DNA of 64,000 nucleotides from Trypanosoma brucei (taxonomy: Eukaryota), in assembly GCA_000002445.1 (NCBI GenBank), contig CM000207.1, forward strand, positions 1,120,001 to 1,184,000, written 5' to 3'. The notes under the pieces were generated by a model. It worked only from the letters and a program-made list of their open reading frames with translations, was not told the DNA's origin and ran no database searches. Both the position numbers and the translations under genes were made by a program. This document shows positions 16,965 to 57,050 of the stretch, one piece after another. Numbering within the stretch: position 1 is the first letter of the stretch; the number at the start of each line of letters is the position of its first letter.

Positions 16965-18110
16965 TTATATCAATAGCAACAAATACACCAACAGAGGTGA
17001 AATGATTTGAGTTTCATTTTTTGGTCGAAGTGGCTTTTGTGATTGTCGTGACGATTCTGTAGTGTTTGTTTCTCTTGAACTAAACGGATCAGTGTCCGTA
17101 GTAGTTTGCGTATTTGTATTTGCATTTGTACCTGATGTTACGGATGCCTCGCTCTCTGCTGCTGTTTGAGGGTGTTGTGGGTGTGGCTGAGCTGGGAGTG
17201 GTTTATTTTTTTCTTCCACATTTTGCTCCGGGGGTTGCACAACAGGTTGTGAAACCCTAGGTTGTTGGTGCGTTTTCCCTCCTTCTGGATTATTTTCTTT
17301 CGATACTGGCGGCCCCTCATTCTTTCTTGCCTCGTTTTGAGGGTTGGCCAGTTTTTCGATAAGTTTTTCCAGTCGTGTAAGCCACTCGACGTTCAGCCTT
17401 CCCGTTTCCTCACCTCCCAGTTTGTACATAACACAAGGGGCGTCCCTCAGATTATCTGAAGCTCCGCAGGATTGAGTGATTGGTGGACTTCCGTGTCCAA
17501 AGCGCTTTGTTTCGCTGTTTCCCGTTCCTCTTTCCCTTTCCTTTAGTTTTGTTGAAAGATTCTCCTTCATTGTTTTCAAAGTTTTGGCATCAGGTCTCGC
17601 AGCGTAAATTGCTGTGGAACATTTTTCCATAACGCTTTTCCAATGCTGTTCTGCTTGTGTTCCGTTGCTCCAGCTTTATTCACCATTTTGCCATATGTTG
17701 CTTTCATAGCACAGATTGACCATTTCGCCTTTACCATTTTGTGGCTTGCACAAACACAGAAGATCTACTGCCAACGCTTTACCTGCAAAAACAACTTCAC
17801 TCGACGTCACTGCATCTACGTAACCGCAGTCATTATAGCGTCGATCTTTTCCATTCCAATTAAGGGAGCCATCACTTCCATCTCCGTACAATATTGTGTT
17901 TATGGTAGTGTTATATTCGTTTTCATTGTCGCCTACTTCATCCTCGTTTTGTTTAACCAACTCTCGTATTCCCAGTGTTAAATTTAAAAAACTGCATAGT
18001 GTGTCAAATTCTTCTTTATTCTTTACGGAGCCGTCTGGGGATGCCTGACAACTCACTTCTTTTATCACCAAAACCAGGCATATCAAAAACCTAACTGAGT
18101 ATTTCCACAT
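16965..18110 (-). pseudogene. VSG-like (B-type) surface protein gene inactivated by a nonsense mutation; the intact paralogue is 38886..40031
   Basis: Copy 2 encodes an uninterrupted 381-aa protein (...NIWQNGEESWSNG...). In copy 1 the minus-strand codon GAA (Glu) is TAA, so plus-strand 17676-17678 reads tta where the partner has ttc at 39596-39598. This splits the gene into ORFs 17676..18110 and 16965..17630. Only 3 other amino-acid differences separate the copies. Confidence 0.8.
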
Positions 18111-20129: not shown

Positions 20130-20296
20130 TATTTATCTAAAAACGAAACAAGTTTACTTGAGGCAATTTAATACAGTATATCTCATTAGAAACTAACACG
20201 CACATGAACACACATATGCATACATACACACCATTTTAAATGCAACAAAGACGCAAAAAAAACATAACATAACATATTTGGTAATGTAATATTAAA

Positions 20297-21715: not shown

Positions 21716-24700
21716 TGTGGCTGTTTTTTTTACTTTTATCAGTTAAACAAATTGGAGAAAAACCTCATCATCGCAGTCATTATTGTTATTGGTAGACGCA
21801 CTCAACAGACGTATACAATGAAAAATATTGAAATTAATAAGTGCCTGGCTCAAACCAACTACAACAGGACCCAACAAAGAGTAAATCACATTCCAAAACA
21901 CATTTACATGAGTTCCCTCTCGTCATGCTGGATATCAACATAAAGTTCCTTTACAACTGTTTTGTTTCTCCAATATCTTCCTCCACCAAATTAACCTCCA
22001 CTACCTTAACTACCATTCTGGCTTGTCCCAATTTTCTAACTGAGTTGCGCTTCTATTTTCTGTATTTCCTCGTTAGTGACTTATCCACTACCCTAATGTG
22101 TACCTGCACTTTCATACTATTTTTTTTTCACATCCTGTACCAACTCCTTTAAACTCTGCTTCTGAGTCCCATTTAGCATATCCCGCTCTTTTCATAAGCA
22201 CATTGAAAATACTCTTCGTTACTCTTTTTGTGAGCATGTGCAGCTTCCCGTCCTCCATTTTCTTAGACGACACATTGTTTAATATAAAAGTTGTATCTTA
22301 AAAATACCATCAGTGGACACTTATTATTGAAGCCCTTGTTATACGGTGACGTTACGGGATATAATGTCAGTCACCAACACAAAAAAAACGGCTCCAGAAT
22401 AACAAGAGACCCTCTTTGTCACCACCCTCGTTAGAATTATTTACCACAATCAAAGATGTCACCATTCTTATAGATACGCTGGTGACAAAAAAGGAGGTCA
22501 CATACGTAACCATTTATCCTCTCAGTGAACTCTCATCACCTTTACTCCACACAAGTTCGTTACATTAGCAAAAAACAAACGGCAAAAACGCTACTTGGGT
22601 TAGCTCAAAATCAAACACTCCATCCTTACAGCAAATACAGAGAGCATTCACACACTCCATTCCCCCACAAAATACAGATGGTGGAGACAGCCACAGTTAT
22701 CACAACTCACAATTAAGATAACTCAAGCAAAGACACTCCAACGAAATAGACGACCAATAACACGAAACATGTGAGCACGGACATGCAACGTCTTGCATGT
22801 ATTTTATTATGGAGTAGGGGGAACGTATCCGAAAGTATTTGCTACACAGTAAAATTAGTAGTATTAGCCACGGCGCTATCGAGATGTGTCGAGCAGTACC
22901 GAATCACAGTTGTTGTGGATTTCGTTGAAATGTGGGTAGAAAAGAGGTAATGTTGGATAACGTGGCAACAAGCACGGAAGATGGATGGCCAGTAGTAGAG
23001 GCAAACATGTTAAATCTACCTTACTGGAACCGTTACTCTAAATGTGACAGAACACAGTGCCTTCATTTGCAACACTTATCACCGCACATATTTTCTTCCT
23101 TGCTCGACACATCGGCTTCCAGCCAAACACAAATATGGGAGACTACTGCAACGGTTTCCATTACTAACACTGTGTTTTTTCTGATTCCAGCGGCTTTTCA
23201 TACACGACCATGCAAAAAAACCAGCCCTTCAAACTATTCAACCGGCAATAATAAAGTGCACTAGGATAGTGCATTTTACTAGCTATTCCGAAAGATGTTC
23301 TGCCCTTGCTGTTGAGCTTACTGTAGCAATTTATCGCAGTGTTTCGTACCACCTTATCAAACGTAGTCAACTGCACATCCTCTACCATTTCGCTCCCGTT
23401 TTACTTAATTGGTATTCTTGTTACAATGCTGGATCCTTGACATTACCTGTTTCTTTTGCTGTTATCATTTAGGAAGGTTGAGACCCGTCATGTCCCTTTT
23501 GTGAATCCCATCCGTGACCAAATCAATTACAAACGGAGTGCCATGAATGCTTCTCGCTGTGTCCCCACTGTTGTGACAATAACACTTGTAATGCATGTCA
23601 GTCTAACAGCGTTTTATAACCTTTGAGCAGATTTCAATGGGCCCAATATAGACCACAAGGTGGGTAGCTATTGCATTGGCGTCTTCGTTCCGTCAACTCC
23701 TTTTTCCTGACTCAACAAGTCTCACCCAATCGAGTGCCAGCGCGCCAAAGCAACTGCATACTGTTCATTAGGTAGATCATTCCGCAAAGTTTTTTTTGGT
23801 CAGTCTGCTATATAGAGTGGACCGTCTAGGAAGGCTCTTTGTTTTTACCTCCTGCAAGGAAGGGTGAGAAACGCGCTCTCGTACGCCATTGCCTCTCGCT
23901 GCCTGCTCATGCATTCGAATTATTAAAAAGGTGCGCTCAGACATTCTCCCTGGTCCTACTCAACCAATGTCAGAAATGTCGGGTAAGATTTGTGTTTGAG
24001 GGTTGTGAGCAATCTTTGTTGAGGAAACTACCTGTCTACTGCCACCGCAACATCTGGCTGCTTGCAGGTTTATTTCCCCTTCCCGTGTTTCTGGCGCTGT
24101 GCAAATGCAAACACTTTCTCGTCTCCGAAGAGCAAGGTCTCACACTTCACTTGAATGGGCACTTCACCTTCGCCAGCAATCCCAGTTAGTGGCACTAACA
24201 AACCGCTTCAAGGAATACATTTGCTTTTGATAATTGTGCCACTTACTACGCCACTCTACAAGAAACACAAAACACAAACTAAACATGACGGCTTGAAACG
24301 ATAACGTTAAGACATGGTCACTGGGGAAGGGGTAAAGAAGACACATTATCTGCGATCAGGTTCACCTTACTAGCATGCATTTGTAGAATCATGTATATCG
24401 TGAATTCAACCACTGAAACAAAGAAAACTGCAGACCATTTACCAGCGCCTTCATGTTACAGTGCACCTATTATTATTAAGCTCAGAATAATGCGACGGCT
24501 AAGATTATTTGCAGCACGCATGCTCTTGTGGTTTAATTAAATCTGTCGTGGAAGCAAACCCGCAAAAGTAATGAAAAAAATATATAAGCAATGCACCCTT
24601 TAAACAAGTTGCGTTTCTTAAATGAAAAAACATCGGTGAGGCACCGTTTTTACCGTCATGAATTTCCTCGTTCAGATTATCACGCTTTTGAAACTTGTTT

Positions 24701-29011: not shown

Positions 29012-29720
29012 CTATATTACATTTATTTCAAGGCAACCATCTTTATATTTTTGGAGGCTGTTATCGGTCGCATTGACTTCCAGTGAGCAAGTATGATCGC
29101 CACACTTGACTGGGAGCTCCCCTGCACCTTTAATTTTTCCGTCTTTACACTTCTCAGTTTCCCCATTTCTGTCCTCTATAGCTTTGACGTCGTCCCACAC
29201 AGTCCTAGCAATTTACGCAATAGCTGTGTAATATTTATTTGCTGTTATGAGGGCTTCAGGTAATTTTTTTCCTCACTGCCCTTACACTTTCATTTACCTC
29301 TGCGAATAATCCACCTACCTTAGCTACAAGATCTCCCATTTCATTTCCATAGGATATAAGTTTTTCCAATTTTTTACTTTCCTTTCCCACTGCACCGCTA
29401 ACAACACTCAAATATTTGGTGCTTTCACCTGTTTTACTTTCCATATCATCTAATATGCGAGATGCATTTGCGTACACTTCTTCATTCACGAGCAACCTGC
29501 ACTCTCCACCTGTATATAATGTATTTAATGCATTCGAAAGGCACTTGAGGTAGCATACAGTCTCGTGTAAATTCTGGAAAGAATGATCATCCACCGATGT
29601 ACATCTATCCGTGGTACCAAAGCAGACCACGAGAAGAGGCAACATTAACCGAACCCTCATCTTAACCTTCACTGTGAACTTTTCTATGCGGATATAAACA
29701 GAACGACACATACATTTCAA
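29012..29720 (-). pseudogene. Degenerate VSG gene fragment (N-terminal segment plus Cys-rich C-terminal-domain segment, middle missing)
   Basis: ORF 29256..29720 encodes a signal peptide (MRVRLMLPLLVVCFGTTDRCTS) and a short helical N-terminal stretch. ORF 29012..29200 encodes EKCKDGKIKGAGELPVKCGDHTCSLEVNATDNSLQKYKDGC, which looks like a VSG C-terminal domain (CKD...C...C). There is no continuous ORF of VSG length. Confidence 0.4.
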
Positions 29721-35084: not shown

Positions 35085-35344
35085 CGTTTTCTTCCAGGGA
35101 TGGAGCTACAAAAATTATACGAAACACTACTAAGAAACAAAAAAAATGGTCAATACGTATAATATGATGTATGGTAAGCTATTAATATAAATTCAAAGTT
35201 AGAGTGAATACACACAAACTTAAATACCATAAGCCATTCCAATTACGTCCCCCGCCGAAAAGGCGCTATAAACGCCACAAGGGTCCCTTCCATTGCTTCC
35301 AATACCTTTTCACCATATTTTTGTGATATCGTATAGCAACATTA

Positions 35345-37676
35345 ATGCATTCAAGTAGTTCCCTTACCCGTATTTTTTTTTGATCCCCCTCAGACGCCTC
35401 ACATAATTCCTCATTTTCCATATTCTGATGGTCAGGGCAACAATAAACAAAATTAGTTCAGATAATATATCTTTTGACAACTTCACCCTCCCACCAACCA
35501 AATGAAAAAACATACATATATTTCTTTTAGTAATTTTTTTTGATACTTGATCTGACGTTATTGGTCCTTTTGTTAGCACTTCCATTATTATCTGTAGGCG
35601 GTTCCCCGCTTCTACAACACGTTTTGACATTACTGTAGTTTCGATAGTTTGCTATATATATAGCTATCATTTTGCTTTCCTTATCCAAACGCTCATATCA
35701 TGTTTCCAAAATTAGGTCTCGCCCATTCGGTCTCATACTTCAATTGACTCAAGTATAATCGTAATAATGTTCAGGGTTTGTGTGCACGTAGCGCGGTTCG
35801 TTTGGCATCTTTGCTTTTCCGGATTTCACAGCAACAACTTCAAAGCCTCTATTTATTTCAACTTGAAATGGTCACGAATTTTATTCACTATTTATTTTCG
35901 TTTCTCTTCCCTTTGCTTTTCCTGTCCTCAACTTTCATTGCTCTCCATAGGTGCGAGTGGTTCATTTCCATAGCATCGAAGTTATCCACCTCAGTTAAAT
36001 TCTAAAGTAGAAAAACACATTGCCTCTCCGTTCCTTCCATCTCGTTTTCTGGTCTTATGCGCTAGCGTTTTTTTTATTTTCTTCATTGACGTTGAAAATT
36101 AAAAATATATGTATTAATGATGGAATGGCTTATAAAGCAACAAAAATAAGAATATCCATGGAGACCGCGAATTTATTTCGGCGAAACTCCTTTGTTCTTC
36201 TGGTGGTCTTGTCGTAGTTCCAGTGGTTTCTGTAGCTGTGGCGCTTGTAGTTGTTTGTGTATTTGTATTTCCATTTTTTTGTGGTTCGCCTGATCCCTTG
36301 GTTGGTGAGTTTTCCCTTGGGCTTCGCTTCGTCCGTGTATTTGTGTTAGTGTCTGTCTCTGTGCTTGTGGTTGTAGTAGCCGCTGTGTCGGCGTCTGTGA
36401 TTGCATTTTTGCTCATTTCTTCGACCCTCTCCACCAGGTCCTCGAGCTCACTGAGCCATTTGATGCCTCTTGTACTGTCTTGATTGGGTCTCTTCGGATA
36501 CATCACACAAATGCCATTGGTTTGTGTTTCCTGTCCATCGCAGACATTTGGCTCGCTAACTTCGTTCCCTCCGTAGGTGTAGTACCTGCGCCCACTTGAG
36601 CCTTTGCGTTTTTTTATGCCCGTCTCGAGGCGTTTTCTCTTATCTTGAAACTCAGTCCTCGTTGGTGGAACACCAATACGTCCACTTTCGCACTTATTTT
36701 GTAGTTCGCTCCATGTATTTTTGTGGTTGCTTGAGCTTCTCCATGTTTGAGAAATATATCGTTCCTTGTTTCCAGTGTAACAGAGGTCTCCGGGTGGTGA
36801 CGTTCCGTCTCTTCCTTCGCACAAACAAATAAGATCTTTTACAAGTGCCTCTCCTGCTAAGGAAACTCGTCCACCACTGTCCTGTCCGCAGTCCATTTCT
36901 CTGTATCGTTTCCATCCGATTTCATTCACATTTTCAGCATTTGCCCCAAACAATATATCATTAACCTTTTTCTGTAGAGAAGCCACATTTACTGCCGACT
37001 TTCCTTTCAACTGTAGTGACGAGTTTATTCGTTGTGTTAAACTAACAAATCCACATAACGTTTTGAACTCCTCTTCATTAACGATGGTTCCTCCTGCAGT
37101 AGTTGCAAGAGCCAAAGACACACCCACAATTAATCCCAGTGACTCCTTCCACATTTTCATTAACATTCCTTCAATTACCTTCCTTAAAGGAGAACACAAA
37201 CAACGAAAAAAAACCATATGCCTCCATCTTCATTCCCAAATAAATCGTACACGTAACCCAATCAATAACACTTTTACCTGGAAAACCTCCTTTTATTTTC
37301 GGTGCACTGAATTGAATTGAAGGGAACTGCATCTCTTGCGGAGCATGTGTCCCGTTTCCTTTTTTAAGCATCATAAAGGATGGGAGATACGCAATTAACA
37401 CGTTAATGCACATACACCAAACATAATCCTCTTTCCATTACCTCTGCTAATACCCTTCAAGCAAAGGCAAGAAAAAACTTGCTATTCTAACACAATAATT
37501 AACTATATCTGTCTTGATAGCACCTTACACGTGAATACTAGAAGCTGAATAATCATGCATTATTATCCTCACTCTCCGGAGAGCAGTAAAAAGGGCCATC
37601 AAAAGAACTCAAAGGTAGAAACCCGAATAGTCAAGCGTTAGAATTTTCGATTCCTCCTCAAAAGTTGTGCTAACAG
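35345..37676. repeat. Segmental duplication module B, copy 1 (about 2.3 kb; partner at 48422-50748, offset 13,076 bp)
   Basis: ORFs 36114..37217 and 49190..50293 differ by a single amino acid. Flanking non-coding sequence, including ORFs 35364..35630 / 48440..48706 and 37171..37413 / 50247..50489, is essentially identical. Similarity stops at 37676 / 50748. Confidence 0.9.
36114..37217 (-). CDS. VSG-like (B-type motif) surface glycoprotein with Thr-rich C-terminal stalk and hydrophobic tail (367 aa as listed; true start probably the internal MWKESL... near 37154)
   Basis: Signal-peptide-like KMWKESLGLIVGVSLALATTAGG. B-type hallmark LAGEALVKDLICLCEGRDG. A stalk dominated by T/N/D/E (TTTTSTETDTNTNTRTK...NTNTQTTTSATATETTGTTT). 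C-terminal SPWIFLFLLLY. The N-terminal 21 residues of the listed ORF look like a spurious extension. Confidence 0.7.
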   Translation of the reverse strand: MVFFRCLCSPLRKVIEGMLMKMWKESLGLIVGVSLALATTAGGTIVNEEEFKTLCGFVSLTQRINSSLQLKGKSAVNVASLQKKVNDILFGANAENVNEIGWKRYREMDCGQDSGGRVSLAGEALVKDLICLCEGRDGTSPPGDLCYTGNKERYISQTWRSSSNHKNTWSELQNKCESGRIGVPPTRTEFQDKRKRLETGIKKRKGSSGRRYYTYGGNEVSEPNVCDGQETQTNGICVMYPKRPNQDSTRGIKWLSELEDLVERVEEMSKNAITDADTAATTTTSTETDTNTNTRTKRSPRENSPTKGSGEPQKNGNTNTQTTTSATATETTGTTTRPPEEQRSFAEINSRSPWIFLFLLLYKPFHH

Positions 37677-38885
37677 CACTCAGACTTACACAACAACATC
37701 GTAGCCTATAGGTCACACACCCTGATAAAATTAAGGCATCTTTACCGTGCCAACTTTAACATGTCAAGGAAGGTTTAGGACATTTCTAACGAGTCCTTAG
37801 TTTATTCTATCTGTTCACAAACCCTCACTCAAAGTCCCTGTTTTTAGATACCACAGACCTTTGTGGAGCCGCCTGAGTTTAGAGGAATTTTCGATGCAGC
37901 GATGGTATTTCTTATCCCTGCATCGGTTGAACAAGTGGGGAATTCGTCATAAAAGGTGGCGCATTCAAATGTGATGATATTCAATCCGCAGTTTAAACCA
38001 CCAGCATTGCCTAATTTTCCGAAGTGTAGTTTTTTTCGTGGCAAAACATACACATAACTTCTTTATGATTTTCCCTAAACAAGAAAGAATCAAATTTGAT
38101 GTTGTCAATTTTTTAGTAGCAATAATGAGAATATATTGGTGACCCCTGAGGGTCCGCCCACTTAAATTTTAAATGCAGATATGGATAGTAGCAAGTCTCT
38201 TGAGCCTGCGTTTTCACTACCTAAGAGTAGAGCAAACGACTCCAGCTCCTGAAGGTGTTTTGGAAAAGCAGCTCTCTCCGCAACCTCTTTTGGAAAATGT
38301 GAAGTGTGATATTCCTAGATTCATTAGGAATACACAACCTCCGATACTGGAACAAACAAAAACATTGCTTACTTACTAGCCATTAGCCCCATAGAAATCT
38401 TCACAAGAGCTTGAGCACGTCACCCTTTTTGACTCAAAAGAGGTAACGTGTCATGTGTCTGGTCTCGTTCACTACACTTGATGCGAGCTCATCTTCATGC
38501 ATTACATACAGGGTGCATACAGAGTCAGGAAACTTCGTGTAAAAACAACAACAACAACAACAGACCTCCGCGATTCTTCCTTAAGTTTGTAGACAATATT
38601 GTGAAGTAATTATATTGTGGGCTAAAACTGATCCATAATCACTTCTTTCTCTCCAGGTCCACTTTCTGGTCGCACCATAATTGCCTTTAGAAGAGGTAAT
38701 AAATCACTTGTTTTTCTCGAGCACAACTGCGACGTTGTCATTATGGTTTGTCTTTCCCTTCTAGAATTTTAGTCATCCACATTCCAAATAAGTGTTACCT
38801 TTATAAAATATGACACTAAAATCCACTATTATTCATACTAATAATGTTATTATTAACATAAAGAAATCACGCGTGTTAGATTGCT

Positions 38886-40031
38886 TTATATCAACAGCAA
38901 CAAAATCACCAACAGAGGTGAAATAACTTGAGTTTCATTTTTTGGTCGAAGTGGCTTTTGTGATTGTCGTGACGATTCTGTAGTGTTTGTTTCTCTTGAA
39001 CTAAACGGATCAGTGTCCGTAGTAGTTTGCGTATTTGTATTTGTGTTTTTGCCTGATGTTACGGATGCCTCGCTCTCTGCTGCTGTTTGAGGGTGTTGTG
39101 GGTGTGGCTGAGCTGGGAGTGGTTTATTTTTTTCTTCCACATTTTGCTCCGGGGGTTGCACAACAGGTTGTGAAACCCTAGGTTGTTGGTGCGTTTTCCC
39201 TCCTTCTGGATTATTTTCTTTCGATACTGGCGGCCCCTCATTCTTTCTTGCCTCGTTTTGAGGGTTGGCCAGTTTTTCGATAAGTTTTTCCAGTCGTGTA
39301 AGCCACTCGACGTTCAGCCTTCCCGTTTCCTCACCTCCCAGTTTGTACATAACACAAGGGGCGTCCCTCAGATTATCTGAAGCTCCGCAGGATTGAGTGA
39401 TTGGTGGACTTCCGTGTCCAAAGCGCTTTGTTTCGCTGTTTCCCGTTCCTCTTTCCCTTTCCTTTAGTTTTGTTGAAAGATTCTCCTTCATTGTTTTCAA
39501 AGTTTTGGCATCAGGTCTCGCAGCGTAAATTGCTGTGGAACATTTTTCCATAACGCTTTTCCAATGCTGTTCTGCTTGTGTTCCGTTGCTCCAGCTTTCT
39601 TCACCATTTTGCCATATGTTGCTTTCATAGCACAGATTGACCATTTCGCCTTTACCATTTTGTGGCTTGCACAAACACAGAAGATCTACTGCCAACGCTT
39701 TACCTGCAAAAATAACTTCACTCGACGTCACTGCATCTACGTAACCGCAGTCATTATAGCGTCGATCTTTTCCATTCCAATTAAGGGAGCCATCACTTCC
39801 ATCTCCGTACAATATTGTGTTTATGGTAGTGTTATATTCGTTTTCATTGTCGCCTACTTCATCCTCGTTTTGTTTAACCAACTCTCGTATTCCCAGTGTT
39901 AAATTTAAAAAACTGCATAGTGTGTCAAATTCTTCTTTATTCTTTACGGAGCCGTCTGGGGATGCCTGACAACTCACTTCTTTTATCACCAAAACCAGGC
40001 ATATCAAAAACCTAACTGAGTATTTCCACAT
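38886..40031 (-). CDS. VSG-like (B-type motif) surface glycoprotein with Thr-rich C-terminal stalk and hydrophobic tail (381 aa), the intact copy
   Basis: ATG verified (MWKYSVRFLICLVLVIKEVSCQ, a signal peptide). FAGKALAVDLLCLCKPQNG. C-terminal NTNTNTQTTTDTDP... then ISPLLVILLLLI. It is the uninterrupted paralogue of pseudogene 16965..18110. Confidence 0.75.
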   Translation of the reverse strand: MWKYSVRFLICLVLVIKEVSCQASPDGSVKNKEEFDTLCSFLNLTLGIRELVKQNEDEVGDNENEYNTTINTILYGDGSDGSLNWNGKDRRYNDCGYVDAVTSSEVIFAGKALAVDLLCLCKPQNGKGEMVNLCYESNIWQNGEESWSNGTQAEQHWKSVMEKCSTAIYAARPDAKTLKTMKENLSTKLKERERGTGNSETKRFGHGSPPITQSCGASDNLRDAPCVMYKLGGEETGRLNVEWLTRLEKLIEKLANPQNEARKNEGPPVSKENNPEGGKTHQQPRVSQPVVQPPEQNVEEKNKPLPAQPHPQHPQTAAESEASVTSGKNTNTNTQTTTDTDPFSSRETNTTESSRQSQKPLRPKNETQVISPLLVILLLLI

Positions 40032-40934
40032 TTTCTTGGCTTTCCCGTCTAACTCCTAAGTTTCAGAGGAAGAATTTGTTCAGCGAGTTTCGCAAACATT
40101 AAAACATATTTTTGATCTTCAAATAGAAGCGCAAATTTATATTATACATGCACCATCATACAAGTAATGCACCACGTTAGAATGTGAAAACATTCAGTTA
40201 AATTACTGATGGGTAAGCATCATTCGCTGCTGGGGCAAATCATTGTTGCATTCAGAGTCGACAACTAATCAATTATGTGCAATTTTGCTTTGCAACAAAA
40301 GAAATGCTTATTTTCTTGATGTGCGTGTTTACTCTTCACCCCTGCGGATCACCATTAACAGGAGCAAACCCTCTTCTTCATCACTTTAAAAACAGAAAAA
40401 ATGCATCACATACTAGTTCTCACACGCTCCAAAAAATTTCGCTTTATAATGTACTTTTTAGAAAGGTTTTCATGGTCCACATGGCTTCAGTGGTCATTCA
40501 ATTTCACGACAGGTTACCTCTCTACACAGATCGCGCAGTGCACCACTCCAATAGTCCCTTTTTTACTTCATACCCTTCATAGACTCTGACCCTGTGAAGA
40601 GGGGGAGTAGAAGCATGCTCACTCGTGGATCGCGTCCGCAGAAAAAATAAAAATATTCTATTACTATATACGCGGACTACGCTACAAGTATAGAATCCTA
40701 TAATCCATTATGAATGTGTTTTCTGTTCTTTAGACCGAGGTGTACGCATTTACACCTTCCTACAGTCAAGCTATACGCACAAATCATAGAACGAAATGAT
40801 AAATTGTAACGGGGGTAAAACGTAATGGATGTGTCTCCAAACACGATTATCATCGAATCAATATAGCTAAAGTGATGTGGACTCCAAGTTAGTAATCCCA
40901 AAAACAAAACCATTGCACAAAATACAACATTGAA

Positions 40935-42050
40935 TCACATAACCAACATTTCTGCAAAAAATATTAGACCTATTATGGCGTGTTGCTTCCTCATTTTGAA
41001 TCCTTCTTCATCTATAACATCGTCTTCATCCTCACCTCCCTTGCGCTTCCTCCCACTCTCCTTGAAATACCTACGCACCATCGGGCTCTGAGTTAACAAT
41101 TCTTTTAGTTTATTTTCATGCTTTGCAAAGGATGTAAGGGTTGGCTGTACATCACGGTACTGTTTTGTAATTCTTTCGTATCCTCTTCTAACCAAAGTGT
41201 AGTTCTTGATCAGTTCGCGCACCATGTCACTAGATTTCAGAATAACGGCAGAATCTTTTTTGTAGGTAACAAACCCTCCAGTAGTTCCCACTATGAAAGA
41301 TCCAGGTCCTCCATTTGCAACCTCTTCCGTGCCCATGATCCAGCACTTTGTGCTGTTATCGGCTGTTAGTTCGACTTCTCGGTTAGCTGTGTATTTTTCA
41401 AGCACAGACAATATACCATCATCTGAATTATCCTCAGTGAAAGACATATTACATTTGTTTGGGGCTTTTACTGCTTCGTATTTGCAATTACCTTCCCCAC
41501 CACTTCCACATCCATTCTCACCTCCCGAAGAGCCTGCTTCCTTCACCAAACAACACCATTTACTTTCTTCATCCTTCGTTTTCTCAAACAATACTACCAA
41601 ATCCCTCAATACTTGTCCAATTGACAGTGATGCATTCACAACATGATAGGAGACTCTCACAATGTCTAAGAAACTAGCATCCATTACCTGAAGAGCATTA
41701 TCCATATTATTCATTACTTTTTCCATTTCCACATATGTTTTCTTTACATTTTTCATCTCACTTCCATTAACAACCCCTATCTTCTCCAGACCCTGCACTA
41801 TTGCTTTCCATGTTCTCCCCTTTACACCATGCCGATGCCGCCATTCCCGAAACTTATCTACCATTCCTGTCGCATTTTGGTGCTTCTTCAGAATCTCAGC
41901 ACTCACAACCCTTAAGGCATGACTGAGGTTACACAATGTTTCAGCTCCCTTGAGAGTCATAGCCTTTCCAGAAGGTTGCCCCTCCACTGTCCCAGTGACA
42001 ATGCCAAACACTGTCAGGCACACTGCAAGAAAAAGTGATATCACCTTCAT
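40935..42050 (-). CDS. VSG-like surface glycoprotein (371 aa), paralogue of 19014..20129
   Basis: Identical length. 6 amino-acid differences from copy 1, mostly charge-changing (E/K, S/R, K/R). Confidence 0.65.
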   Translation of the reverse strand: MKVISLFLAVCLTVFGIVTGTVEGQPSGKAMTLKGAETLCNLSHALRVVSAEILKKHQNATGMVDKFREWRHRHGVKGRTWKAIVQGLEKIGVVNGSEMKNVKKTYVEMEKVMNNMDNALQVMDASFLDIVRVSYHVVNASLSIGQVLRDLVVLFEKTKDEESKWCCLVKEAGSSGGENGCGSGGEGNCKYEAVKAPNKCNMSFTEDNSDDGILSVLEKYTANREVELTADNSTKCWIMGTEEVANGGPGSFIVGTTGGFVTYKKDSAVILKSSDMVRELIKNYTLVRRGYERITKQYRDVQPTLTSFAKHENKLKELLTQSPMVRRYFKESGRKRKGGEDEDDVIDEEGFKMRKQHAIIGLIFFAEMLVM

Positions 42051-42218
42051 TATTTATCTAAAAACGAAACAAGTTTACTTGAGGCAATTTAATACAGTAT
42101 ATCTCATTAGAAACTAACACGCACATGAACACACATATGCATACATACACACCATTTTAAATGCAACAAAGACGCAAAAAAAAACATAACATAACATATT
42201 TGGTAATGTAATATTAAA

Positions 42219-43637
42219 CTAAAAGATAAGAATAAGAGATAAGAATAATAACAATATAAACCCCCACGTTTCCATATTCAAATGAGTAAGTCCATCATTA
42301 TTTACCTCAGTATTATCACCTTCGCTGTCACCCTTTACTCGGCTACTTTTCCATAGCTCTGCATCACCACCTAGTTTCACCTCAAGAAATATTTCCTCGG
42401 CCTCGTGTTGATACTCTTCCAACTCATGAAGATGACTGTCAGCTTCTTTTGAATATTTATCCATTTCTTGCAGTTGCTCGGTAGCGTTAGTAAGACGATT
42501 GTACCATGGAATTCCACCATTTTCAAGTGTGTACTTGTAACTGACACATGTGAATCCAGCAGTATGACCCGTGCATGTCCGATTTTCGTTTTTATCAGTT
42601 CTCACATAACCAAAAATACCCTTCACCTGATATTTATCCTGTTCCAAATTCACTAAGGCATCAAACTGAGCTAATGCACTTTTCAAAGTCTTTACATTCG
42701 ATGCAACGTTTTTGTACACACAAGCTTTACTAATCACATCCCATGCCTCAGTGTAATTGTATTTTATGTTGTCTGGGCTGCAGGGGCTGCTATTGCCCTT
42801 ACAGTAATTTGCCATCATTGTCCAACTTCCATTTTTTGGTCTTCTTATTTCATCTTTACAAGGACAATTGAACCCATTATAAACACTATCACTATATTTG
42901 CCCTTACCGCTCTCTTCTTTTTTTTTATCTTCATTATCTTCATTATCTTCTTCCTCTTTCTCGTCTCTTTTCTGCCTCATATCTTCAGTCACATTTATAG
43001 CCTCTCCCACACATAGACAGAAAAAGTCATTGATTAGTGTCTTTCCAACCAGCTTGTCTCCATAAGAACCGCAACTCGTGCCTGCATTATCAATACTATT
43101 GAACAGCAGTGACTTGTTTCCCCTCATGGCTTTCTCTAGAGTTTTATTCTCATTTCGCGCCACATCCACAGCGTCTCCATACACAGCTTTCAACATATTG
43201 TCTTCGGCAGAACGACTTGCATTTAACGCTTTTGTCCTATTCACTTCTATTTCTTCCTTCAGCTTTTTCGCCTTTTCAAGCAGTTGTATCATCAACTGAT
43301 ATGCTGTCGTGCTGTTAGATGAATTGCTCGAGCCTTTATTACTTCCAGCGGCCCCCACCACACTGACCTTTTCCTCCAACTTCTTCAGAATCTCTCCTTC
43401 CTTCTCACGGTTCTTGAAGGGGGGTTGTGGTGCTTCTGCCTGCGTAATTCGGTAAATTTTGCACAGTGTCTCGAACTCACCAACGTTATGGTATTTGTAA
43501 CTATCGTCGATGTAATCCGTAATGCTTCCCCAGTCAACCATATCAGGCCGCCATTTGTACGACCCCATATCTCCCTGAAAGGAAGGAGATAAAACAGCTG
43601 CAAAAAGCCCAACAGCGAACACTATTTCACACCTCAT
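42219..43637 (-). CDS. Variant surface glycoprotein (472 aa), paralogue of 20297..21715
   Basis: Identical length. About 10 amino-acid differences. Six of these fall within a 20-residue window (QPSFKNREKEANILNELEEM versus QPPFKNREKEGEILKKLEEK). Confidence 0.8.
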   Translation of the reverse strand: MRCEIVFAVGLFAAVLSPSFQGDMGSYKWRPDMVDWGSITDYIDDSYKYHNVGEFETLCKIYRITQAEAPQPPFKNREKEGEILKKLEEKVSVVGAAGSNKGSSNSSNSTTAYQLMIQLLEKAKKLKEEIEVNRTKALNASRSAEDNMLKAVYGDAVDVARNENKTLEKAMRGNKSLLFNSIDNAGTSCGSYGDKLVGKTLINDFFCLCVGEAINVTEDMRQKRDEKEEEDNEDNEDKKKEESGKGKYSDSVYNGFNCPCKDEIRRPKNGSWTMMANYCKGNSSPCSPDNIKYNYTEAWDVISKACVYKNVASNVKTLKSALAQFDALVNLEQDKYQVKGIFGYVRTDKNENRTCTGHTAGFTCVSYKYTLENGGIPWYNRLTNATEQLQEMDKYSKEADSHLHELEEYQHEAEEIFLEVKLGGDAELWKSSRVKGDSEGDNTEVNNDGLTHLNMETWGFILLLFLSLILIF

Positions 43638-46600
43638 TGTGGCTGTTTTTTTTACTTTTATCAGTTAAACAAATTGGAGAAAAACCTCATCATCGCAGTC
43701 ATTATTGCTATTGGTAGACGCACTCAACAGACGTATACAATGAAAAATATTGAAATTAATAAGTGCCTGGCTCAAACCAACTACAACAGGACCCAACAAA
43801 GAGTAAATCACATTCCAAAACACATTTACATGAGTTCCCTCTCGTCATGCTGGATATCAACATAAAGTTCCTTTACAACTGTTTTGTTTCTCCAATATCT
43901 TCCTCCACCAAATTAACCTCCACTACCTTAACTACCATTCTGGCTTGTCCCAATTTTCTAACTGAGTTGCGCTTCTATTTTCTGTATTTCCTCGTTAGTG
44001 ACTTATCCACTACCCTAATGTGTACCTGCACTTTCATACTATTTTTTTTTCACATCCTGTACCAACTCCTTTAAACTCTGCTTCTGAGTCCCATTTAGCA
44101 TATCCCGCTCTTTTCATAAGCACATTGACAATACTCTTCGTTACTCTTTTTGTGAGCATGTGCAGCTTCCCGTCCTCCATTTTCTTAGACGACACATTGT
44201 TTAATATAAAAGTTGTATCTTAAAAATACCATCAGTGGACACTTATTATTGAAGCCCTTGTTATACGGTGACGTTACGGGATATAATGTCAGTCACCAAC
44301 ACAAAAAAAACGGCTCCAGAATAACAAGAGACCCTCTTTGTCACCACCCTCGTTAGAATTATTTACCACAATCAAAGATGTCACCATTCTTATAGATACG
44401 CTGGTGACAAAAAAGGAGGTCACATACGTAACCATTTATCCTCTCAGTGAACTCTCATCACCTTTACTCCACACAAGTTCGTTACATTAGCAAAAAACAA
44501 ACGGCAAAAACGCTACTTGGGTTAGCTCAAAATCAAACACTCCATCCTTACAGCAAATACAGAGAGCATTCACACACTCCATTCCCCCACAAAATACAGA
44601 TGGTGGAGACAGCCACAGTTATCACAACTCACAATTAAGATAACTCAAGCAAAGACACTCCAACGAAATAGAAGACCAATAACACGAAACATGTGAGCAC
44701 GGACATACAACGTCTTGCATGTATTTTATTATGGAGTAGGGGGAACGTATCCGAAAGTATTTGCTACACAGTAAAATTACTACTATTAGCCACGGCGCTA
44801 TCGAGATGTGTCGAGCAGTACCGAAGCACAGTTGCCATAGATTTCGTTGAAAAGTAGGTAGAAAAGAGGTAATGTTGGATAACGTGGCAACAAGCACGGA
44901 AGATGGATGGCCAGTAGTAGAGGCAAACATGATAACTCTACCTTACTGGAACCGTTACTCTAAATGTGACAGAACACAGTGCCGTCATTTGCAACACTTA
45001 TCACCGCACATATTTTCCTCCTTACTCGACACATCGGCTTTCAGTCAAGCACAAATAGGGGAGATTATTGCTATGATTCCCATTACTAACGGTGTGGGTT
45101 TTCTTGCCGTGAGTAGTGAGTAGCACACGTCCATTGCAGAATTCTAAACCCTCAATTGATTTAACCGGTCACTTATGGGATGCGATTTGGCGTGCAGTTT
45201 ATTGGTAATTCTCAGAGATGCACTGCCTTTGGTCGTGAGTCTACGATAACAATTTACTGCAAACGTTTGTACCACCTTATCAAACGTAGTCAACTGCACA
45301 TCCTCTACCATTTCGCTCCCGTTTTACTTAATTGGTATTCTTGTTACAATGCTGGATCCTTGACATTACCTGTTTCTTTTGCTGTTATCATTTAGGAAGG
45401 TTGAGACCCGTCATGTCCCTTTTGTGAATCCCATCCGTGACCAAATCAATTACAAACGGAGTGCCATGAATGCTTCTCGCTGTGTCCCCACTGTTGTGAC
45501 AATAACACTTGTAATGCATGTCAGTCTAACAGCGTTTTATAACCTTTGAGCAGATTTCAATGGGCCCAATATAGACCACAAGGTGGGTAGCTATTGCATT
45601 GGCGTCTTCGTTCCGTCAACCCTATTTCCTGACTCAACAAGTCTCGCCCAATTGAGTGCCACCGCACCAAAGCAACTGCATACTGTTCATTAGGTAGATC
45701 ATTCCGCAAAGTTATTTCGGTCACCTCGCCACGCAGACTAGCCAGCCCCAGAGGGTTTGTTGTTTTTACCTTCTGCTGAGGAGGTTGAAAATCACGTTCT
45801 CGTACGCCCTTTTCCCCCGCTGCCTGCTCATGCATTCGAATTATTCAAATGGTGCGCTCAGACATTCTCTCTGGTCCTACTCAACTAGTATCAGAAGTGT
45901 CGGTTAAGATTTGTGAGTGAGAGTTCTGAGCAGCTTCTTTCCAGGATACTGCTTGTCTACAGTCGCTACAACTTTTGGTTGCTTTCAGGCTTAAACACTA
46001 CTTCCTTTGTTTCCACCACTGTGCAAATGCAAACGCATTCTTGTTTCCCCCTTCCCTGTTCCACAGTATCCGGCGCGCTCCTAAGAATTGAATTGCCTGT
46101 ATCCCATGGTTACGGCACTTCCTTGGGTCGTACAATTGGTCCAGACAGTCTCTGCTAGTCTTGTTGCAGGTTTCTACCTCGGAAGAGTACGGTCTAACAC
46201 TCTGCTTGATTGGGCACCTCACTTTCGCCAGAAACTACAGTTACTGGCATAACCAATTAGCTTCAAGTAATACGCTTATATTGGTATTCACGAGATTTAT
46301 TACGCGTAAGTTGAAGTACTCATTAACAAGCGATAAGTAGAGTAAAGTTATAATCTTAAAGTCCAGTAGTGTCAAAAAAAGATAGTATATCCGCGGCCAG
46401 GTTAATCTTGCCAGTACACGTAGAATTATGCAAATAATAAAGTAATCAACCAAAAGAAAAAGTGCTAGCAATGTATTTTTCAGCGTCTTCTCGTTAAAAT
46501 TTTATTATTTCTGCGCTTAAGTTTGCGAGTTTCAATACAGTTTGCAGCAATTGTGCTACTATCTTAGTCAAATGGGTTTTGCAATCAACGCTTACAAAAA

Positions 46601-48164: not shown

Positions 48165-48421
48165 TATTTTCTTGCAAGATTTCGCGAAACAAATTATGCA
48201 AAACACTATTAGAAAAAACGCGGCCAACACATGTGGGTACAACACATAAAAAAATTATAATCATATTTGGATTTCGAGCGAACACACACAAACCAAAACA
48301 CTACATTTCATTCCGGTTATCCTATGCCGTTAAAAAGACAATCAAACTCTGCATGTGCCTCATCCACCTTCTTCAGGACATGCCCGCATCATTTCCGTGA
48401 GGCATTACCTAAGCGCATTAA

Positions 48422-50748
48422 TGCATTCAAGCCTTTCCCCTACCCGTGGTTCTTATGATCACCCCTCAGACACCTCACATAATTCCTCATTTTCCATATT
48501 CTGATGGTCAGGGCAACAATAAACAAAATTAGTTCAGATAATATATCTTTTGACAACTTCACCCTCCCACCAACCAAATGAAAAAACATACATATATTTC
48601 TTTTAGTAATTTTTTTTGATACTTGATCTGACGTTATTGGTCCTTTTGTTAGCACTTCCATTATTATCTGTAGGCGGTTCCCCGCTTCTACAACACGTTT
48701 TGACATTACTGTAGTTTCGATAGTTTGCTATATATATAGCTATCATTTTGCTTTCCTTATCCAAACGCTCATATCATGTTTCCAAAATTAGGTCTCGCCC
48801 ATTCGGTCTCATACTTCAATTGACTCAAGTATAATCGTAATAATGTTCAGGGTTTGTGTGCACGTAGCGCGGTTCGTTTGGCATCTTTGCTTTTCCGGAT
48901 TTCACAGCAACAACTTCAAAGCCTCTATTTATTTCAACTTGAAATGGTCACGAATTTTATTCACTATTTATTTTCGTTTCTCTTCCCTTTGCTTTTCCTG
49001 TCCTCAACTTTCATTGCTCTCCATAGGTGCGAGTGGTTCATTTCCATAGCATCGAAGTTATCCACCTCAGTTAAATTCTAAAGTAGAAAAACACATTGCC
49101 TCTCCGTTCCTTCCATCTCGTTTTCTGGTCTTATGCGCTAGCGTTTTTTTTATTTTCTTCATTGACGTTGAAAATTAAAAATATATGTATTAATGATGGA
49201 ATGGCTTATAAAGCAACAAAAATAAGAATATCCATGGAGACCGCGAATTTATTTCGGCGAAACTCCTTTGTTCTTCTGGTGGTCTTGTCGTAGTTCCAGT
49301 GGTTTCTGTAGCTGTGGCGCTTGTAGTTGTTTGTGTATTTGTATTTCCATTTTTTTGTGGTTCGCCTGATCCCTTGGTTGGTGAGTTTTCCCTTGGGCTT
49401 CGCTTCGTCCGTGTATTTGTGTTAGTGTCTGTCTCTGTGCTTGTGGTTGTAGTAGCCGCTGTGTCGGCGTCTGTGATTGCATTTTTGCTCATTTCTTCGA
49501 CCCTCTCCACCAGGTCCTCGAGCTCACTGAGCCATTTGATGCCACTTGTACTGTCTTGATTGGGTCTCTTCGGATACATCACACAAATGCCATTGGTTTG
49601 TGTTTCCTGTCCATCGCAGACATTTGGCTCGCTAACTTCGTTCCCTCCGTAGGTGTAGTACCTGCGCCCACTTGAGCCTTTGCGTTTTTTTATGCCCGTC
49701 TCGAGGCGTTTTCTCTTATCTTGAAACTCAGTCCTCGTTGGTGGAACACCAATACGTCCACTTTCGCACTTATTTTGTAGTTCGCTCCATGTATTTTTGT
49801 GGTTGCTTGAGCTTCTCCATGTTTGAGAAATATATCGTTCCTTGTTTCCAGTGTAACAGAGGTCTCCGGGTGGTGACGTTCCGTCTCTTCCTTCGCACAA
49901 ACAAATAAGATCTTTTACAAGTGCCTCTCCTGCTAAGGAAACTCGTCCACCACTGTCCTGTCCGCAGTCCATTTCTCTGTATCGTTTCCATCCGATTTCA
50001 TTCACATTTTCAGCATTTGCCCCAAACAATATATCATTAACCTTTTTCTGTAGAGAAGCCACATTTACTGCCGACTTTCCTTTCAACTGTAGTGACGAGT
50101 TTATTCGTTGTGTTAAACTAACAAATCCACATAACGTTTTGAACTCCTCTTCATTAACGATGGTTCCTCCTGCAGTAGTTGCAAGAGCCAAAGACACACC
50201 CACAATTAATCCCAGTGACTCCTTCCACATTTTCATTAACATTCCTTCAATTACCTTCCTTAAAGGAGAACACAAACAACGAAAAAAAACCATATGCCTC
50301 CATCTTCATTCCCAAATAAATCGTACACGTAACCCAATCAATAACACTTTTACCTGGAAAACCTCCTTTTATTTTCGGTGCACTGAATTGAATTGAAGGG
50401 AACTGCATCTCTTGCGGAGCATGTGTCCCGTTTCCTTTTTTAAGCATCATAAAGGATGGGAGATACGCAATTAACACGTTAATGCACATACACCAAACAT
50501 AATCCTCTTTCCATTACCTCTGCTAATACCCTTCAAGCAAAGGCAAGAAAAAACTTGCTATTCTAACACAATAATTAACTATATCTGTCTTGATAGCACC
50601 TTACACGTGAATACTAGAAGCTGAATAATCATGCATTATTATCCTCACTCTCCGGAGAGCAGTAAAAAGGGCCATCAAAAGAACTCAAAGGTAGAAACCC
50701 GAATAGTCAAGCGTTAGAATTTTCGATTCCTCCTCAAAAGTTGTGCTA
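48422..50748. repeat. Segmental duplication module B, copy 2
   Basis: See copy 1 at 35345-37676. Confidence 0.9.
49190..50293 (-). CDS. VSG-like surface glycoprotein with Thr-rich stalk (paralogue of 36114..37217, 1 aa difference)
   Basis: Identical ORF apart from R versus S (NQDSTRGIKW / NQDSTSGIKW). Confidence 0.7.
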   Translation of the reverse strand: MVFFRCLCSPLRKVIEGMLMKMWKESLGLIVGVSLALATTAGGTIVNEEEFKTLCGFVSLTQRINSSLQLKGKSAVNVASLQKKVNDILFGANAENVNEIGWKRYREMDCGQDSGGRVSLAGEALVKDLICLCEGRDGTSPPGDLCYTGNKERYISQTWRSSSNHKNTWSELQNKCESGRIGVPPTRTEFQDKRKRLETGIKKRKGSSGRRYYTYGGNEVSEPNVCDGQETQTNGICVMYPKRPNQDSTSGIKWLSELEDLVERVEEMSKNAITDADTAATTTTSTETDTNTNTRTKRSPRENSPTKGSGEPQKNGNTNTQTTTSATATETTGTTTRPPEEQRSFAEINSRSPWIFLFLLLYKPFHH

Positions 50749-50749
50749 A

Positions 50750-53150: not shown

Positions 53151-53199
53151 CCCGACACTTCAGTAAACACAAACAAATAATCACCAAAACATCAACTCC

Positions 53200-53784
53200 C
53201 CAAACTTCTCTTTTTTTTTTTGGCCAACACCGCATAATAGCGGTCAGGGAATCATGTCGAACTCTTCGGAATATCCAACGTTGCAACATCACGGCAAACA
53301 CTTCCGCACACAACAGCTCCGCCGTAACTGTCAGCCCGCCCGTGTGCATTTGACTCCTTTCATGCAAGGCGATATATGGAAGTAACGTTGTGTTCCCGCC
53401 ACCAGGAGTTTTTTTTTCTTCTTTTTCTCATATAAAAAATAAAAATCTGGTCTTAACTCCTTCCGCAGGTTACTTCACCTCACTGTGTTCATTGGATTTT
53501 ATTTTATCTTATTTATTTTTTTTGCCTTTACCTTTTCCCATGTCCACATTCCCACTTTACCGCCAGATGAGACAACATTAGCTTCATTTAACCTCCGCAT
53601 GATTAACAAATAACACACACACACACAAAAAAAAAAAGAAAAGATAACCCGATAAAACCGATGTCGTACACCAATAATTTAATAAATGCAAAGAGGAATT
53701 TAAAGTAAACTGGGACAAATCGCCATCAGATTATTGCATTATTTCCCACCTTCCAACTCGAACCCGCTGTTCTGAACTAAGTTT

Positions 53785-53816
<32 letters not shown>

Positions 53817-56800: not shown

Positions 56801-57050
56801 ACTCTCTTCCAGTTTCTTTCTCCTTCTTTCATTCTTTCTTCTTGTCGTTTCCCTTTGTTAGCCGCTACCCTATACAACTTCTTAATCCGTCTTCCTTTTT
56901 TTCTATTTTTTCTTTTTAAAAAAAAAAAATAAGAAAAACCTTTTAACCAATTCAATAAACGTTTTGCTCTCATTTATTTTTTATTTTATGCCTTTTTTTT
57001 TCTTTTTCATTCATTCATTCATTCTTTCATTTATTCATTTATTACCTCCT
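53200..57050. repeat. Extremely AT-rich low-complexity / microsatellite-rich region
   Basis: Long A and T homopolymers. (ATA)n at 53786-53816. (AAAT)n and (ATAA)n runs. (CAAA)n at 55731-55750. (AAATAA)n at 56235-56275. (TC)n / (CA)n at 56598-56640. Strand-asymmetric blocks: T-rich top strand at 55.25-55.65 kb and A-rich top strand at 55.65-56.5 kb. Confidence 0.9.

What the first reader, a model, noticed from the sequence alone, without database searches (positions are those of the whole stretch)
36114..40031. Short VSG-like proteins carrying a Thr-rich stalk between the B-type domain and the GPI signal
The 367-aa and 381-aa proteins carry the B-type VSG N-terminal hallmark (D-L-[LI]-C-L-C) but are about 100 aa shorter than the neighbouring 472-487-aa VSGs. 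In place of a Cys-rich VSG C-terminal domain they have a low-complexity stalk of Thr/Asn/Asp repeats (NTNTQTTTDTDP, TETDTNTNTRTK, TTTSATATETTGTTT) before the hydrophobic tail. This chimeric architecture, a VSG fold head plus a mucin-like stalk, is not the canonical VSG. It suggests a distinct VSG-related subfamily, possibly with a non-variant function.
Basis: partly seen in the sequence, partly recalled or inferred. Interest (0 to 1): 0.5.

Follow-up and report, generated by a model that had tools for sequence, protein, structure and literature searches.

The report
Known VSG-related (VR) surface genes
These two genes are already-annotated members of the Trypanosoma brucei "VSG-related" (VR) family: a shortened coat-protein head on a floppy threonine-rich tether.

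Summary
Both ORFs exist as described. Each has the D-L-[LI]-C-L-C motif, a Cys-free low-complexity C-terminal region and a hydrophobic tail. They are 100% identical to annotated T. brucei TREU927 chromosome 9 proteins. The 367-aa ORF is EAN76761 (Tb09.v1.0290). The 381-aa ORF is EAN76762 (Tb09.v1.0300, "VR16"). Both are named "VSG-related, putative". The stalk is family-wide: 24 paralogues/orthologues share ...NAQTTTSTE..RPPEEQKSS + hydrophobic tail, and it is as conserved as the head.

About 100 aa are missing from the head's helical bundle, and the C-terminal part is only about 20 aa shorter than in a canonical VSG. T. congolense VSGs have the same short-head, Cys-free-tail layout, as the literature already notes. 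The "neighbouring VSGs" are ESAG2 (472 aa) and one VSG (487 aa). The array is a chromosome-internal ESAG2/ESAG11/ESAG9/VR cluster. In the 381-aa protein most of the linker is Pro/Gln-rich, and only the last ~45 aa are Thr/Ser-rich.

Published data show bloodstream-enriched mRNA and surface-proteome detection. Mucin-like O-glycosylation is untested. Verdict: already known, low interest.

The parts
36114..37217 (-). VR gene Tb09.v1.0290 (EAN76761/XP_827091), a 367-aa ORF including the stop codon. The true start is probably M18-M22 (nt 37166-37154), because all homologues begin MLMKMWKES or MWK.
36405..37085 (-). Short class-B VSG head of the 367-aa protein (ORF aa 45-271). It has 8 Cys and includes KDLICLC.
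36189..36404 (-). Thr-rich, Cys-free stalk of the 367-aa protein (ORF aa 272-343), predicted disordered. It ends in the family-conserved RPPEEQ[KR] motif.
   Evidence: 35% Thr, P = 3e-13. pLDDT ~32 over model residues 263-334. Mean pairwise identity 0.50 against 0.53 for the head.
36117..36188 (-). C-terminal tail SFAEINSRSPWIFLFLLLYKPFHH. It is a putative GPI-addition signal, but has only a 9-aa hydrophobic run and a KPFHH extension compared with the family consensus SSxKIILQxLWIFLFLLFV.
38886..40031 (-). VR gene Tb09.v1.0300 = VR16 (EAN76762/XP_827092), a 381-aa ORF including the stop codon.
39267..39965 (-). Short class-B VSG head of the 381-aa protein (aa 23-255). Its 8-Cys spacing is nearly identical to that of the 367-aa protein, and it includes VDLLCLC.
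   Evidence: Pfam VSG_B E 8e-26, profile positions 144-343. Cys positions. BLASTP to VR367 gives 24% identity, E 3e-28.
39087..39266 (-). Pro/Gln/Glu/Asn-rich first part of the 381-aa linker (aa 256-315). It has 2% Thr and no Cys.
38952..39086 (-). Thr/Ser/Asn-rich second part of the 381-aa linker (aa 316-360). It includes NTNTNTQTTTDTDP and one NxT sequon (N349).
38889..38951 (-). C-terminal tail LRPKNETQVISPLLVILLLLI (aa 361-381): a second NxT sequon (N365) and the terminal hydrophobic run, a putative GPI signal. It is the best-conserved region against the T. b. gambiense homologue P0030 (67% identity).
49190..50293 (-). Second copy of the 367-aa VR gene (Tb09.160.5440, EAN76766). It differs by one residue and lies in a 2.3-kb duplication that is 99.5% identical.
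16965..18110 (-). Paralogous copy of the 381-aa VR gene with an in-frame TAG at codon 145 (G433T), probably a pseudogene. It lies in an 8.3-kb duplication that is 95.9% identical.

Best explanation
The two ORFs are the annotated T. brucei TREU927 chromosome 9 genes Tb09.v1.0290 and Tb09.v1.0300 (VR16). They belong to the VSG-related (VR) family: chromosome-internal, non-switching descendants of b-type VSGs. Each encodes four parts. First, a signal peptide. Second, a compact class-B VSG head that lacks about 100 residues of the long helical bundle. Third, a 70-105-residue Cys-free, intrinsically disordered spacer, which is Thr-rich in VR367 and Pro/Gln-rich then Thr/Ser-rich in VR381. This spacer takes the place of the structured Cys-knot C-terminal domain. 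Fourth, a hydrophobic C-terminal tail that most likely directs GPI addition. This short-head, unstructured-tail layout is the one T. congolense uses for its VSGs. The genes sit in a Pol II polycistronic unit among ESAG2, ESAG11 and ESAG9 copies next to a convergent strand switch. Their mRNAs are enriched in bloodstream forms, and a VR protein from this cluster is found on the bloodstream-form surface. Inferred, not shown: the flexible stalk tethers a half-height head within the VSG coat as a low-abundance invariant surface protein. Its ligand or function is unknown.
For: Identity: 100% matches to EAN76761 and EAN76762, named 'VSG-related, putative', with locus names Tb09.v1.0290 and Tb09.v1.0300. 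Jensen 2009 calls Tb09.v1.0300 'VR16' and reports both probe sets 4.2-4.4-fold higher in cultured bloodstream forms than in procyclic forms.

Stalk: it has no Cys and is strongly Thr-enriched. pLDDT is about 32. It is shared and conserved across 24 family members.

T. congolense parallel: full-length colinear hits are T. congolense IL3000 VSGs. They show the same Pfam range and have no tail Cys. [quoted passage not shown]

Context: the neighbours are ESAG2, ESAG11, ESAG9 and an adenosine transporter. Plus-strand housekeeping genes lie up to 6.9 kb and minus-strand genes from 13.1 kb. The VSG 3'UTR 16-mer is absent and there is no 70-bp repeat array.

Protein: Gadelha 2015 reports that VR proteins are enriched in the bloodstream-form surface proteome. 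Its supplement lists Tb927.9.7380 'VSG-related' with 26 peptides, 60.4% coverage, fluoresceinated, and signal only in labelled samples.
Against: GPI anchoring is not shown. The TREU927 367-aa copy has a short 9-aa hydrophobic run followed by KPFHH, and close homologues carry different frameshifted C-termini. I could not map Tb927.9.7380 to one ORF with certainty. Gene order places it at EAN76761 or EAN76762, and the 60.4% coverage fits 230/381 but not any integer count over 367, so this is only an inference. The model of the 381-aa protein is of low confidence (mean pLDDT 48). One paralogue carries a premature stop. No function or ligand is known. The consensus sequences I used for the 16-mer and the 70-bp repeat core were recalled from memory.
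Confidence: 0.85

Rival explanations
1. They are decaying relics of old VSG genes, transcribed passively within a polycistron and without a selected function.
For: One paralogue of the 381-aa gene has an in-frame stop. C-termini in the 367-aa subclade differ by frameshift-like extensions. The 381-aa type has very few relatives. Copy number differs between strains according to the literature on related families.
Against: The ORFs are intact, and all 8 head Cys plus about 30 other residues are invariant across 26 sequences from T. b. brucei, T. b. gambiense and T. equiperdum. The stalk is as conserved as the head. The mRNA is stage-regulated, and a VR from this cluster is detected at 60% coverage in the surface proteome.
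Confidence: 0.08
2. They are genuine variant antigens: short VSGs of T. congolense style that T. brucei can deploy in antigenic variation.
For: Many homologues are deposited under the name 'variant surface glycoprotein' in the Lister 427 and EATRO1125 VSG catalogues. The same architecture serves as the variant coat in T. congolense.
Against: They lie in a chromosome-internal array among ESAG-related and housekeeping genes. There is no 70-bp repeat array and no VSG 3'UTR 16-mer. They lack a T. brucei-type CTD. The literature treats VR genes as non-ES, non-array genes.
Confidence: 0.04
3. They are secreted or shed soluble proteins rather than membrane-anchored ones, at least the 367-aa TREU927 allele, because its C-terminal signal is defective.
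For: The 9-aa hydrophobic run followed by KPFHH is atypical compared with the family consensus. The neighbouring ESAG9 family is known for extracellular release (recalled from the literature on ESAG9, not tested here).
Against: The family consensus tail looks like a 17-aa VSG-type GPI signal. The 381-aa protein ends in a clean hydrophobic run. Surface labelling captured a VR from this cluster.
Confidence: 0.1

Closest known systems
T. brucei VSG-related (VR) family (Marcello & Barry 2007; VR16 = Tb09.v1.0300)
   Same: The sequences are identical to the annotated members. The location is chromosome-internal near a strand switch, the head is b-type, there are no 70-bp repeats, and the mRNA is enriched in bloodstream forms.
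   Different: Nothing differs; the two ORFs are members. The family is heterogeneous. Other VRs have long heads (P0035, 453 aa) or Cys-containing tails (P0037, 490 aa; the in-window 487-aa gene clusters with these).
T. congolense b-type VSGs (IL3000 repertoire, e.g. CCD13942, CCD13070)
   Same: The overall architecture is the same: the head aligns colinearly with no ~100-aa offset, the Pfam VSG_B range is the same (~141-344), the C-terminal region is Cys-free and rich in Ser/Thr/Pro/Glu, and the tail is hydrophobic. One example (P0158) has 25% Thr in its tail.
   Different: The species differs, and those proteins are the variant coat there. Sequence identity is low. A shared origin of the short head was not resolved by my NJ bootstrap analysis. 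The CxC context (CFAESL..C.CTPG) and the GPI-signal motifs also differ.
Fam1 (Tb927.6.1310) of the cell-surface phylome
   Same: It is a T. brucei-specific, b-VSG-derived protein of about 347 aa with a signal peptide and GPI signal. It lacks the canonical CTD, is arrayed in tandem at a strand-switch region, and is expressed in bloodstream forms.
   Different: Jackson 2013 lists it as a family separate from VR. I did not compare it directly with these ORFs.
ESAG2 (the 472-aa neighbours, EAN76757 and EAN76764)
   Same: It is derived from b-type VSG, is invariant, lacks a Cys-rich CTD and has a hydrophobic tail. It lies in the same array.
   Different: It has a long head (148 aa from first Cys to CxC) with an acidic insert, and a short acidic linker rather than a Thr-rich stalk. 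BLASTP finds only patchy similarity to VR367.
Canonical class-B T. brucei VSGs (VSG3, VSG11, VSG615, mVSG1954)
   Different: These have about 100 more residues in the helical bundle, a structured CTD with 4 or 8 Cys, conserved 17/23-aa GPI signals, a subtelomeric or expression-site location, 70-bp repeats and the 3'UTR 16-mer.

Membership tests
T. brucei VR (VSG-related) family | Sequence identity to annotated VR genes | tested here: met
   100% identity to EAN76761 (Tb09.v1.0290) and EAN76762 (Tb09.v1.0300, VR16) (VR16 naming).
T. brucei VR (VSG-related) family | Homology to the VSG N-terminal domain (b-type) | tested here: met
T. brucei VR (VSG-related) family | Chromosome-internal location near a strand-switch region, not in a subtelomeric array or expression site | tested here: met
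   The window holds an RNB-domain protein and other plus-strand genes up to 6.9 kb. Minus-strand genes run from 13.1 kb and include an adenosine transporter.
T. brucei VR (VSG-related) family | No upstream 70-bp repeats | tested here: met
   The repeat-core search found only isolated hits with 1-3 mismatches, two of them inside the VR381 coding sequences, and no array. The core consensus was recalled from memory.
Canonical T. brucei b-type VSG | Full-length N-terminal domain of about 350 aa | tested here: not met
   Only profile positions 144-343 of 352 are matched. About 100 aa are missing relative to the in-window VSG and to VSG1954.
Canonical T. brucei b-type VSG | Cys-rich C-terminal domain (4 or 8 Cys) | tested here: not met
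   No Cys occurs after the head in either protein, whereas complete canonical b-VSGs in the comparison set have 4 or 8.
Canonical T. brucei b-type VSG | Conserved 16-mer in the 3'UTR | tested here: not met
   No match with up to 2 mismatches anywhere in the window. The consensus was recalled from memory.
Canonical T. brucei b-type VSG | GPI-addition signal | tested here: inconclusive
   Hydrophobic C-terminal tails are present. The family consensus resembles a 17-aa VSG signal, but the 367-aa allele has a 9-aa run plus KPFHH. No GPI predictor or experiment was available.
T. congolense-type VSG architecture | Short head plus Cys-free unstructured C-terminal region | tested here: met
   Colinear profile alignments to T. 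congolense IL3000 VSGs. The Pfam range is the same. The first-Cys-to-CxC distance is 75-92 aa and the tails have no Cys.
T. congolense-type VSG architecture | Common descent (monophyly) with T. congolense VSG lineages | tested here: inconclusive
   The NJ tree places them near each other, but the deep nodes have 0-49% bootstrap support. Only the VR367-type clade is solid at 100%.
Mucin-like O-glycosylated stalk proteins | Disordered region rich in Thr/Ser/Pro | tested here: met
   35% Thr, low sequence entropy and pLDDT of about 32.
Mucin-like O-glycosylated stalk proteins | Dense O-glycosylation of the stalk | not testable with these tools
   No predictor or glycoproteomic data were available.

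The most novel reading that the evidence does not exclude
The conserved Thr-rich disordered stalk is densely O-glycosylated in bloodstream T. brucei. These VR proteins would then be mucin-stalked invariant receptors that hold a half-height VSG head at a defined depth in the coat. Such a glycosylation mode and surface-protein design has not been established for bloodstream T. brucei.
Probability: 0.1. Interest if true: 0.5.

Novelty: already known. Interest (0 to 1): 0.12.

Why it matters
It matters little for discovery. The genes are annotated, named (VR16) and measured on expression arrays, and the family has been detected in a surface proteome. The useful residue is descriptive. The short-head VR subfamilies keep, inside T. 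brucei, the T. congolense style of VSG: a compact head on an unstructured, conserved, Thr-rich tether. The function of these invariant surface proteins remains unknown.

Tried and rejected
The word-indexed profile search with alignment A1 did not reach beyond the family. The full HMMER search of representatives was needed instead.

Marcello & Barry 2007 and Jackson 2012 are not held in the library. VR family definitions therefore rest on secondary citations.

The afdb50 fold library was unavailable.

The AF2 model of the 381-aa protein was too poor to use for fold search (mean pLDDT 48).

NJ bootstrapping could not resolve whether the short head is ancestral, shared with T. congolense, or a secondary deletion within the VR lineage. 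The long-headed chromosome 1 VR (P0035) often joins the short-headed clades.

The 70-bp-repeat core hits at 39092 and 17171 lie inside the Pro/Gln-rich coding region and were rejected as repeats.

I considered that the 472-aa neighbours were canonical VSGs and rejected this: they are ESAG2.

I considered true tandem repeats in the stalk and rejected this.

Literature searches on the gene IDs found only Jensen 2009 in main text.
Full report
**Observation.** Both carry the b-type hallmark (KDLICLC and VDLLCLC) and hit Pfam VSG_B (E 1.6e-34 and 8e-26). The quoted Thr-rich peptides are present. Neither protein has a Cys after the head. Thr makes up 35% of the 72-aa stalk of the 367-aa protein (P = 3e-13) and 27% of the last 45 aa of the 381-aa linker (P = 1e-5). 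The first 60 aa of the 381-aa linker are instead Pro/Gln/Glu/Asn-rich with 2% Thr. The stretches are low-complexity rather than tandem repeats.

**Identity.** The 367-aa protein is 100% identical to EAN76761/XP_827091 (Tb09.v1.0290). The 381-aa protein is 100% identical to EAN76762/XP_827092 (Tb09.v1.0300). [quoted passage not shown] Jensen et al. 2009 (PMC2771046) call Tb09.v1.0300 'VR16'. They place it in an expression group that is higher in bloodstream than in procyclic forms, and they list both probe sets as 4.2-4.4-fold up in cultured bloodstream forms. The finding is therefore a rediscovery of the VR family. That paper and Jackson et al. 2013 (PMC3605285) attribute the family to Marcello & Barry 2007. 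[quoted passage not shown]

**Where the missing 100 residues are.** It lies in the head instead.
- Pfam matches only profile positions ~144-343 of 352.
- BLASTP aligns VR367 residues 59-248 with residues 169-356 of the in-window 487/493-aa VSG.
- A family profile aligns positions 42-254 with residues 123-337 of solved VSG1954.
- The distance from the first conserved Cys (EFKTLC) to the CxC motif is 76-80 aa in both ORFs, against 160-195 aa in canonical T. brucei b-VSGs.
- The region after the head is about 97 aa in VR367 and about 118 aa in the 487/493-aa VSG, so the C-terminal part accounts for only about 20 aa of the difference.

Both ORFs share the same eight-Cys framework with nearly identical spacing. 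They are 24% identical to each other (E 3e-28).

**The stalk is a family trait.** The 367-aa type has about 27 relatives of 329-360 aa in T. b. brucei, T. b. gambiense and T. equiperdum. An alignment of 26 sequences (A1) gives the consensus ...NTKPSTGENSPAKG..PQKNGNPNAQTTTSTE..TT.RPPEEQKSS.KIILQSLWIFLFLLFV. Mean pairwise identity is 0.50 in the stalk and 0.53 in the head, so the stalk is under similar constraint. The motif NTQTTT[SD] is shared with the 381-aa type. That type has only one detectable close homologue (P0030, T. b. gambiense, 41% identity), and more distant ones are found by full HMMER search (P0034 and P0036). The TETDTNTNT insertion, and with it the highest Thr content, is specific to the subclade that contains the window copy.

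**T. congolense parallel.** Full HMMER search of 1.84 billion representatives gave 273 hits. Those that align colinearly from the N-terminus without the ~100-aa offset, outside the VR families, are T. congolense IL3000 VSGs. They show the same Pfam range, the same short head, and Cys-free C-terminal regions rich in Ser/Thr/Pro/Glu. One example, P0158, has 25% Thr. A quick NJ tree groups the two VR types near each other and near T. congolense VSGs, but only the VR367-type clade is well supported (100% bootstrap) and the deep nodes are unresolved. A long-headed VR with a Cys-free tail (P0035, chromosome 1) often joins them. Whether the short head is ancestral therefore remains open.

**Context.** Exact look-ups name the neighbours:
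- the 472-aa ORFs are ESAG2;
- the 371-aa ORFs are ESAG11;
- the 258-aa and 262-aa ORFs are ESAG9;
- the 487-aa ORF is 'VSG, putative';
- the 462-aa ORF is an adenosine transporter.

The array contains an 8.3-kb duplication (15791-24126 and 37710-46048, 95.9% identical) and a 2.3-kb duplication (35340-37676 and 48416-50752, 99.5% identical). These give a second copy of the 367-aa gene at 49190-50293 (Tb09.160.5440) and a copy of the 381-aa gene at 16965-18110 with a TAG at codon 145. Plus-strand genes end at 6.9 kb and minus-strand genes begin at 13.1 kb, so the array abuts a convergent strand switch. The VSG 3'UTR 16-mer is absent, and no 70-bp repeat array was found. Both consensus sequences were recalled from memory.

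**Protein-level evidence from the literature.** Gadelha et al. 2015 (PMC4587319) report VR proteins enriched in the bloodstream-form surface proteome. Their supplementary table lists Tb927.9.7380 'VSG-related' with 193 PSMs, 26 peptides, 60.4% coverage and fluorescein modification, with signal only in the labelled samples. Three mappings fix the gene order: Tb927.9.7320 is ESAG11, Tb927.9.7340 is ESAG9 and Tb927.9.7470 is NT10. By this order Tb927.9.7380 is EAN76761 or EAN76762. The value 60.4% fits 230/381 but no integer count over 367, which favours VR16. This is an inference.

**Mechanism.**
- Shown here: the genes' identity as VR family members, the truncated class-B head fold, the conserved Cys-free region predicted to be disordered, the hydrophobic tails, and the internal non-VSG genomic context.
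- From the literature: bloodstream-enriched mRNA and surface association.
- Inferred: GPI anchoring. This is less certain for the 367-aa allele, whose tail is WIFLFLLLY+KPFHH and probably arose by a small indel at the stop codon. Also inferred is that the flexible stalk replaces the CTD as a spacer placing a half-height head within the VSG coat.
- Untested: O-glycosylation of the stalk.

The rival explanations are a decaying relic, a true variant antigen and a secreted protein. They are weighed in their own sections and are less likely.

**Verdict.** Novelty: already known. Interest: low.

Noticed in passing
window 16965-18110 (-): The paralogous copy of the 381-aa VR gene is 98% identical at the DNA level. 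It carries a single in-frame TAG at codon 145 (G433T), which leaves a 221-aa downstream ORF. It is probably a pseudogene or a strain or assembly variant.
   Followed up: yes
window 37154-37217 (-): The annotated 367-aa ORF starts 17-21 codons upstream of where every homologue starts (MLMKMWKES or MWK). The extension MVFFRCLCSPLRKVIEG would bury the signal peptide, so the annotated start is probably too far upstream.
   Followed up: partly
window 15791-24126 vs 37710-46048; 35340-37676 vs 48416-50752: These are segmental duplications (8.3 kb at 95.9% identity and 2.3 kb at 99.5%). They build the ESAG11-ESAG2-ESAG9-VR array and are not a simple tandem repeat of one unit.
   Followed up: partly
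window 20297-21715 and 42219-43637 (-): The ESAG2 copies (472 aa) carry a highly acidic insert (EDMRQKRDEKEEEDNEDNEDKKKEESGK) just after the CxC motif. They have 12-13 N-glycosylation sequons and no Cys-rich CTD. The two copies differ at a few residues.
   Followed up: no
window 13103-14566 (-): The 487-aa 'VSG, putative' (EAN76754) is the last gene before the convergent strand switch. It has a full VSG_B domain, a 4-Cys CTD and no N-glycosylation sequon. It clusters with other long-headed proteins annotated as VR (P0037, P0039) rather than with canonical VSGs, and it lacks the 3'UTR 16-mer.
   Followed up: partly
window 29256-29720 (-): A 154-aa ORF with a signal-peptide-like start (MRVRLMLPLLVVCFG...) lies between the two ESAG9 genes. 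It may be a fragment of an ESAG- or ISG-like gene.
   Followed up: no
window 54001-56000 and 62001-64000: These segments are markedly AT-rich (GC 0.26 and 0.33, against about 0.41 elsewhere). They flank the adenosine transporter and the 524-aa ORF. TRF (min_score 80, run over 50500-64000) found no tandem repeat in 54001-56000 and only a short 18-bp repeat at 63424-63467.
   Followed up: partly
P0002-P0004, P0009, P0017, P0021, P0022, P0026 (homologues of the 367-aa protein): Several family members from other strains have different C-terminal extensions beyond the hydrophobic tail (for example ...FISHSIINTHIFNF and ...LFYRLPHH). This suggests recurrent small indels or stop-codon changes at the extreme 3' end of these genes.
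   Followed up: no
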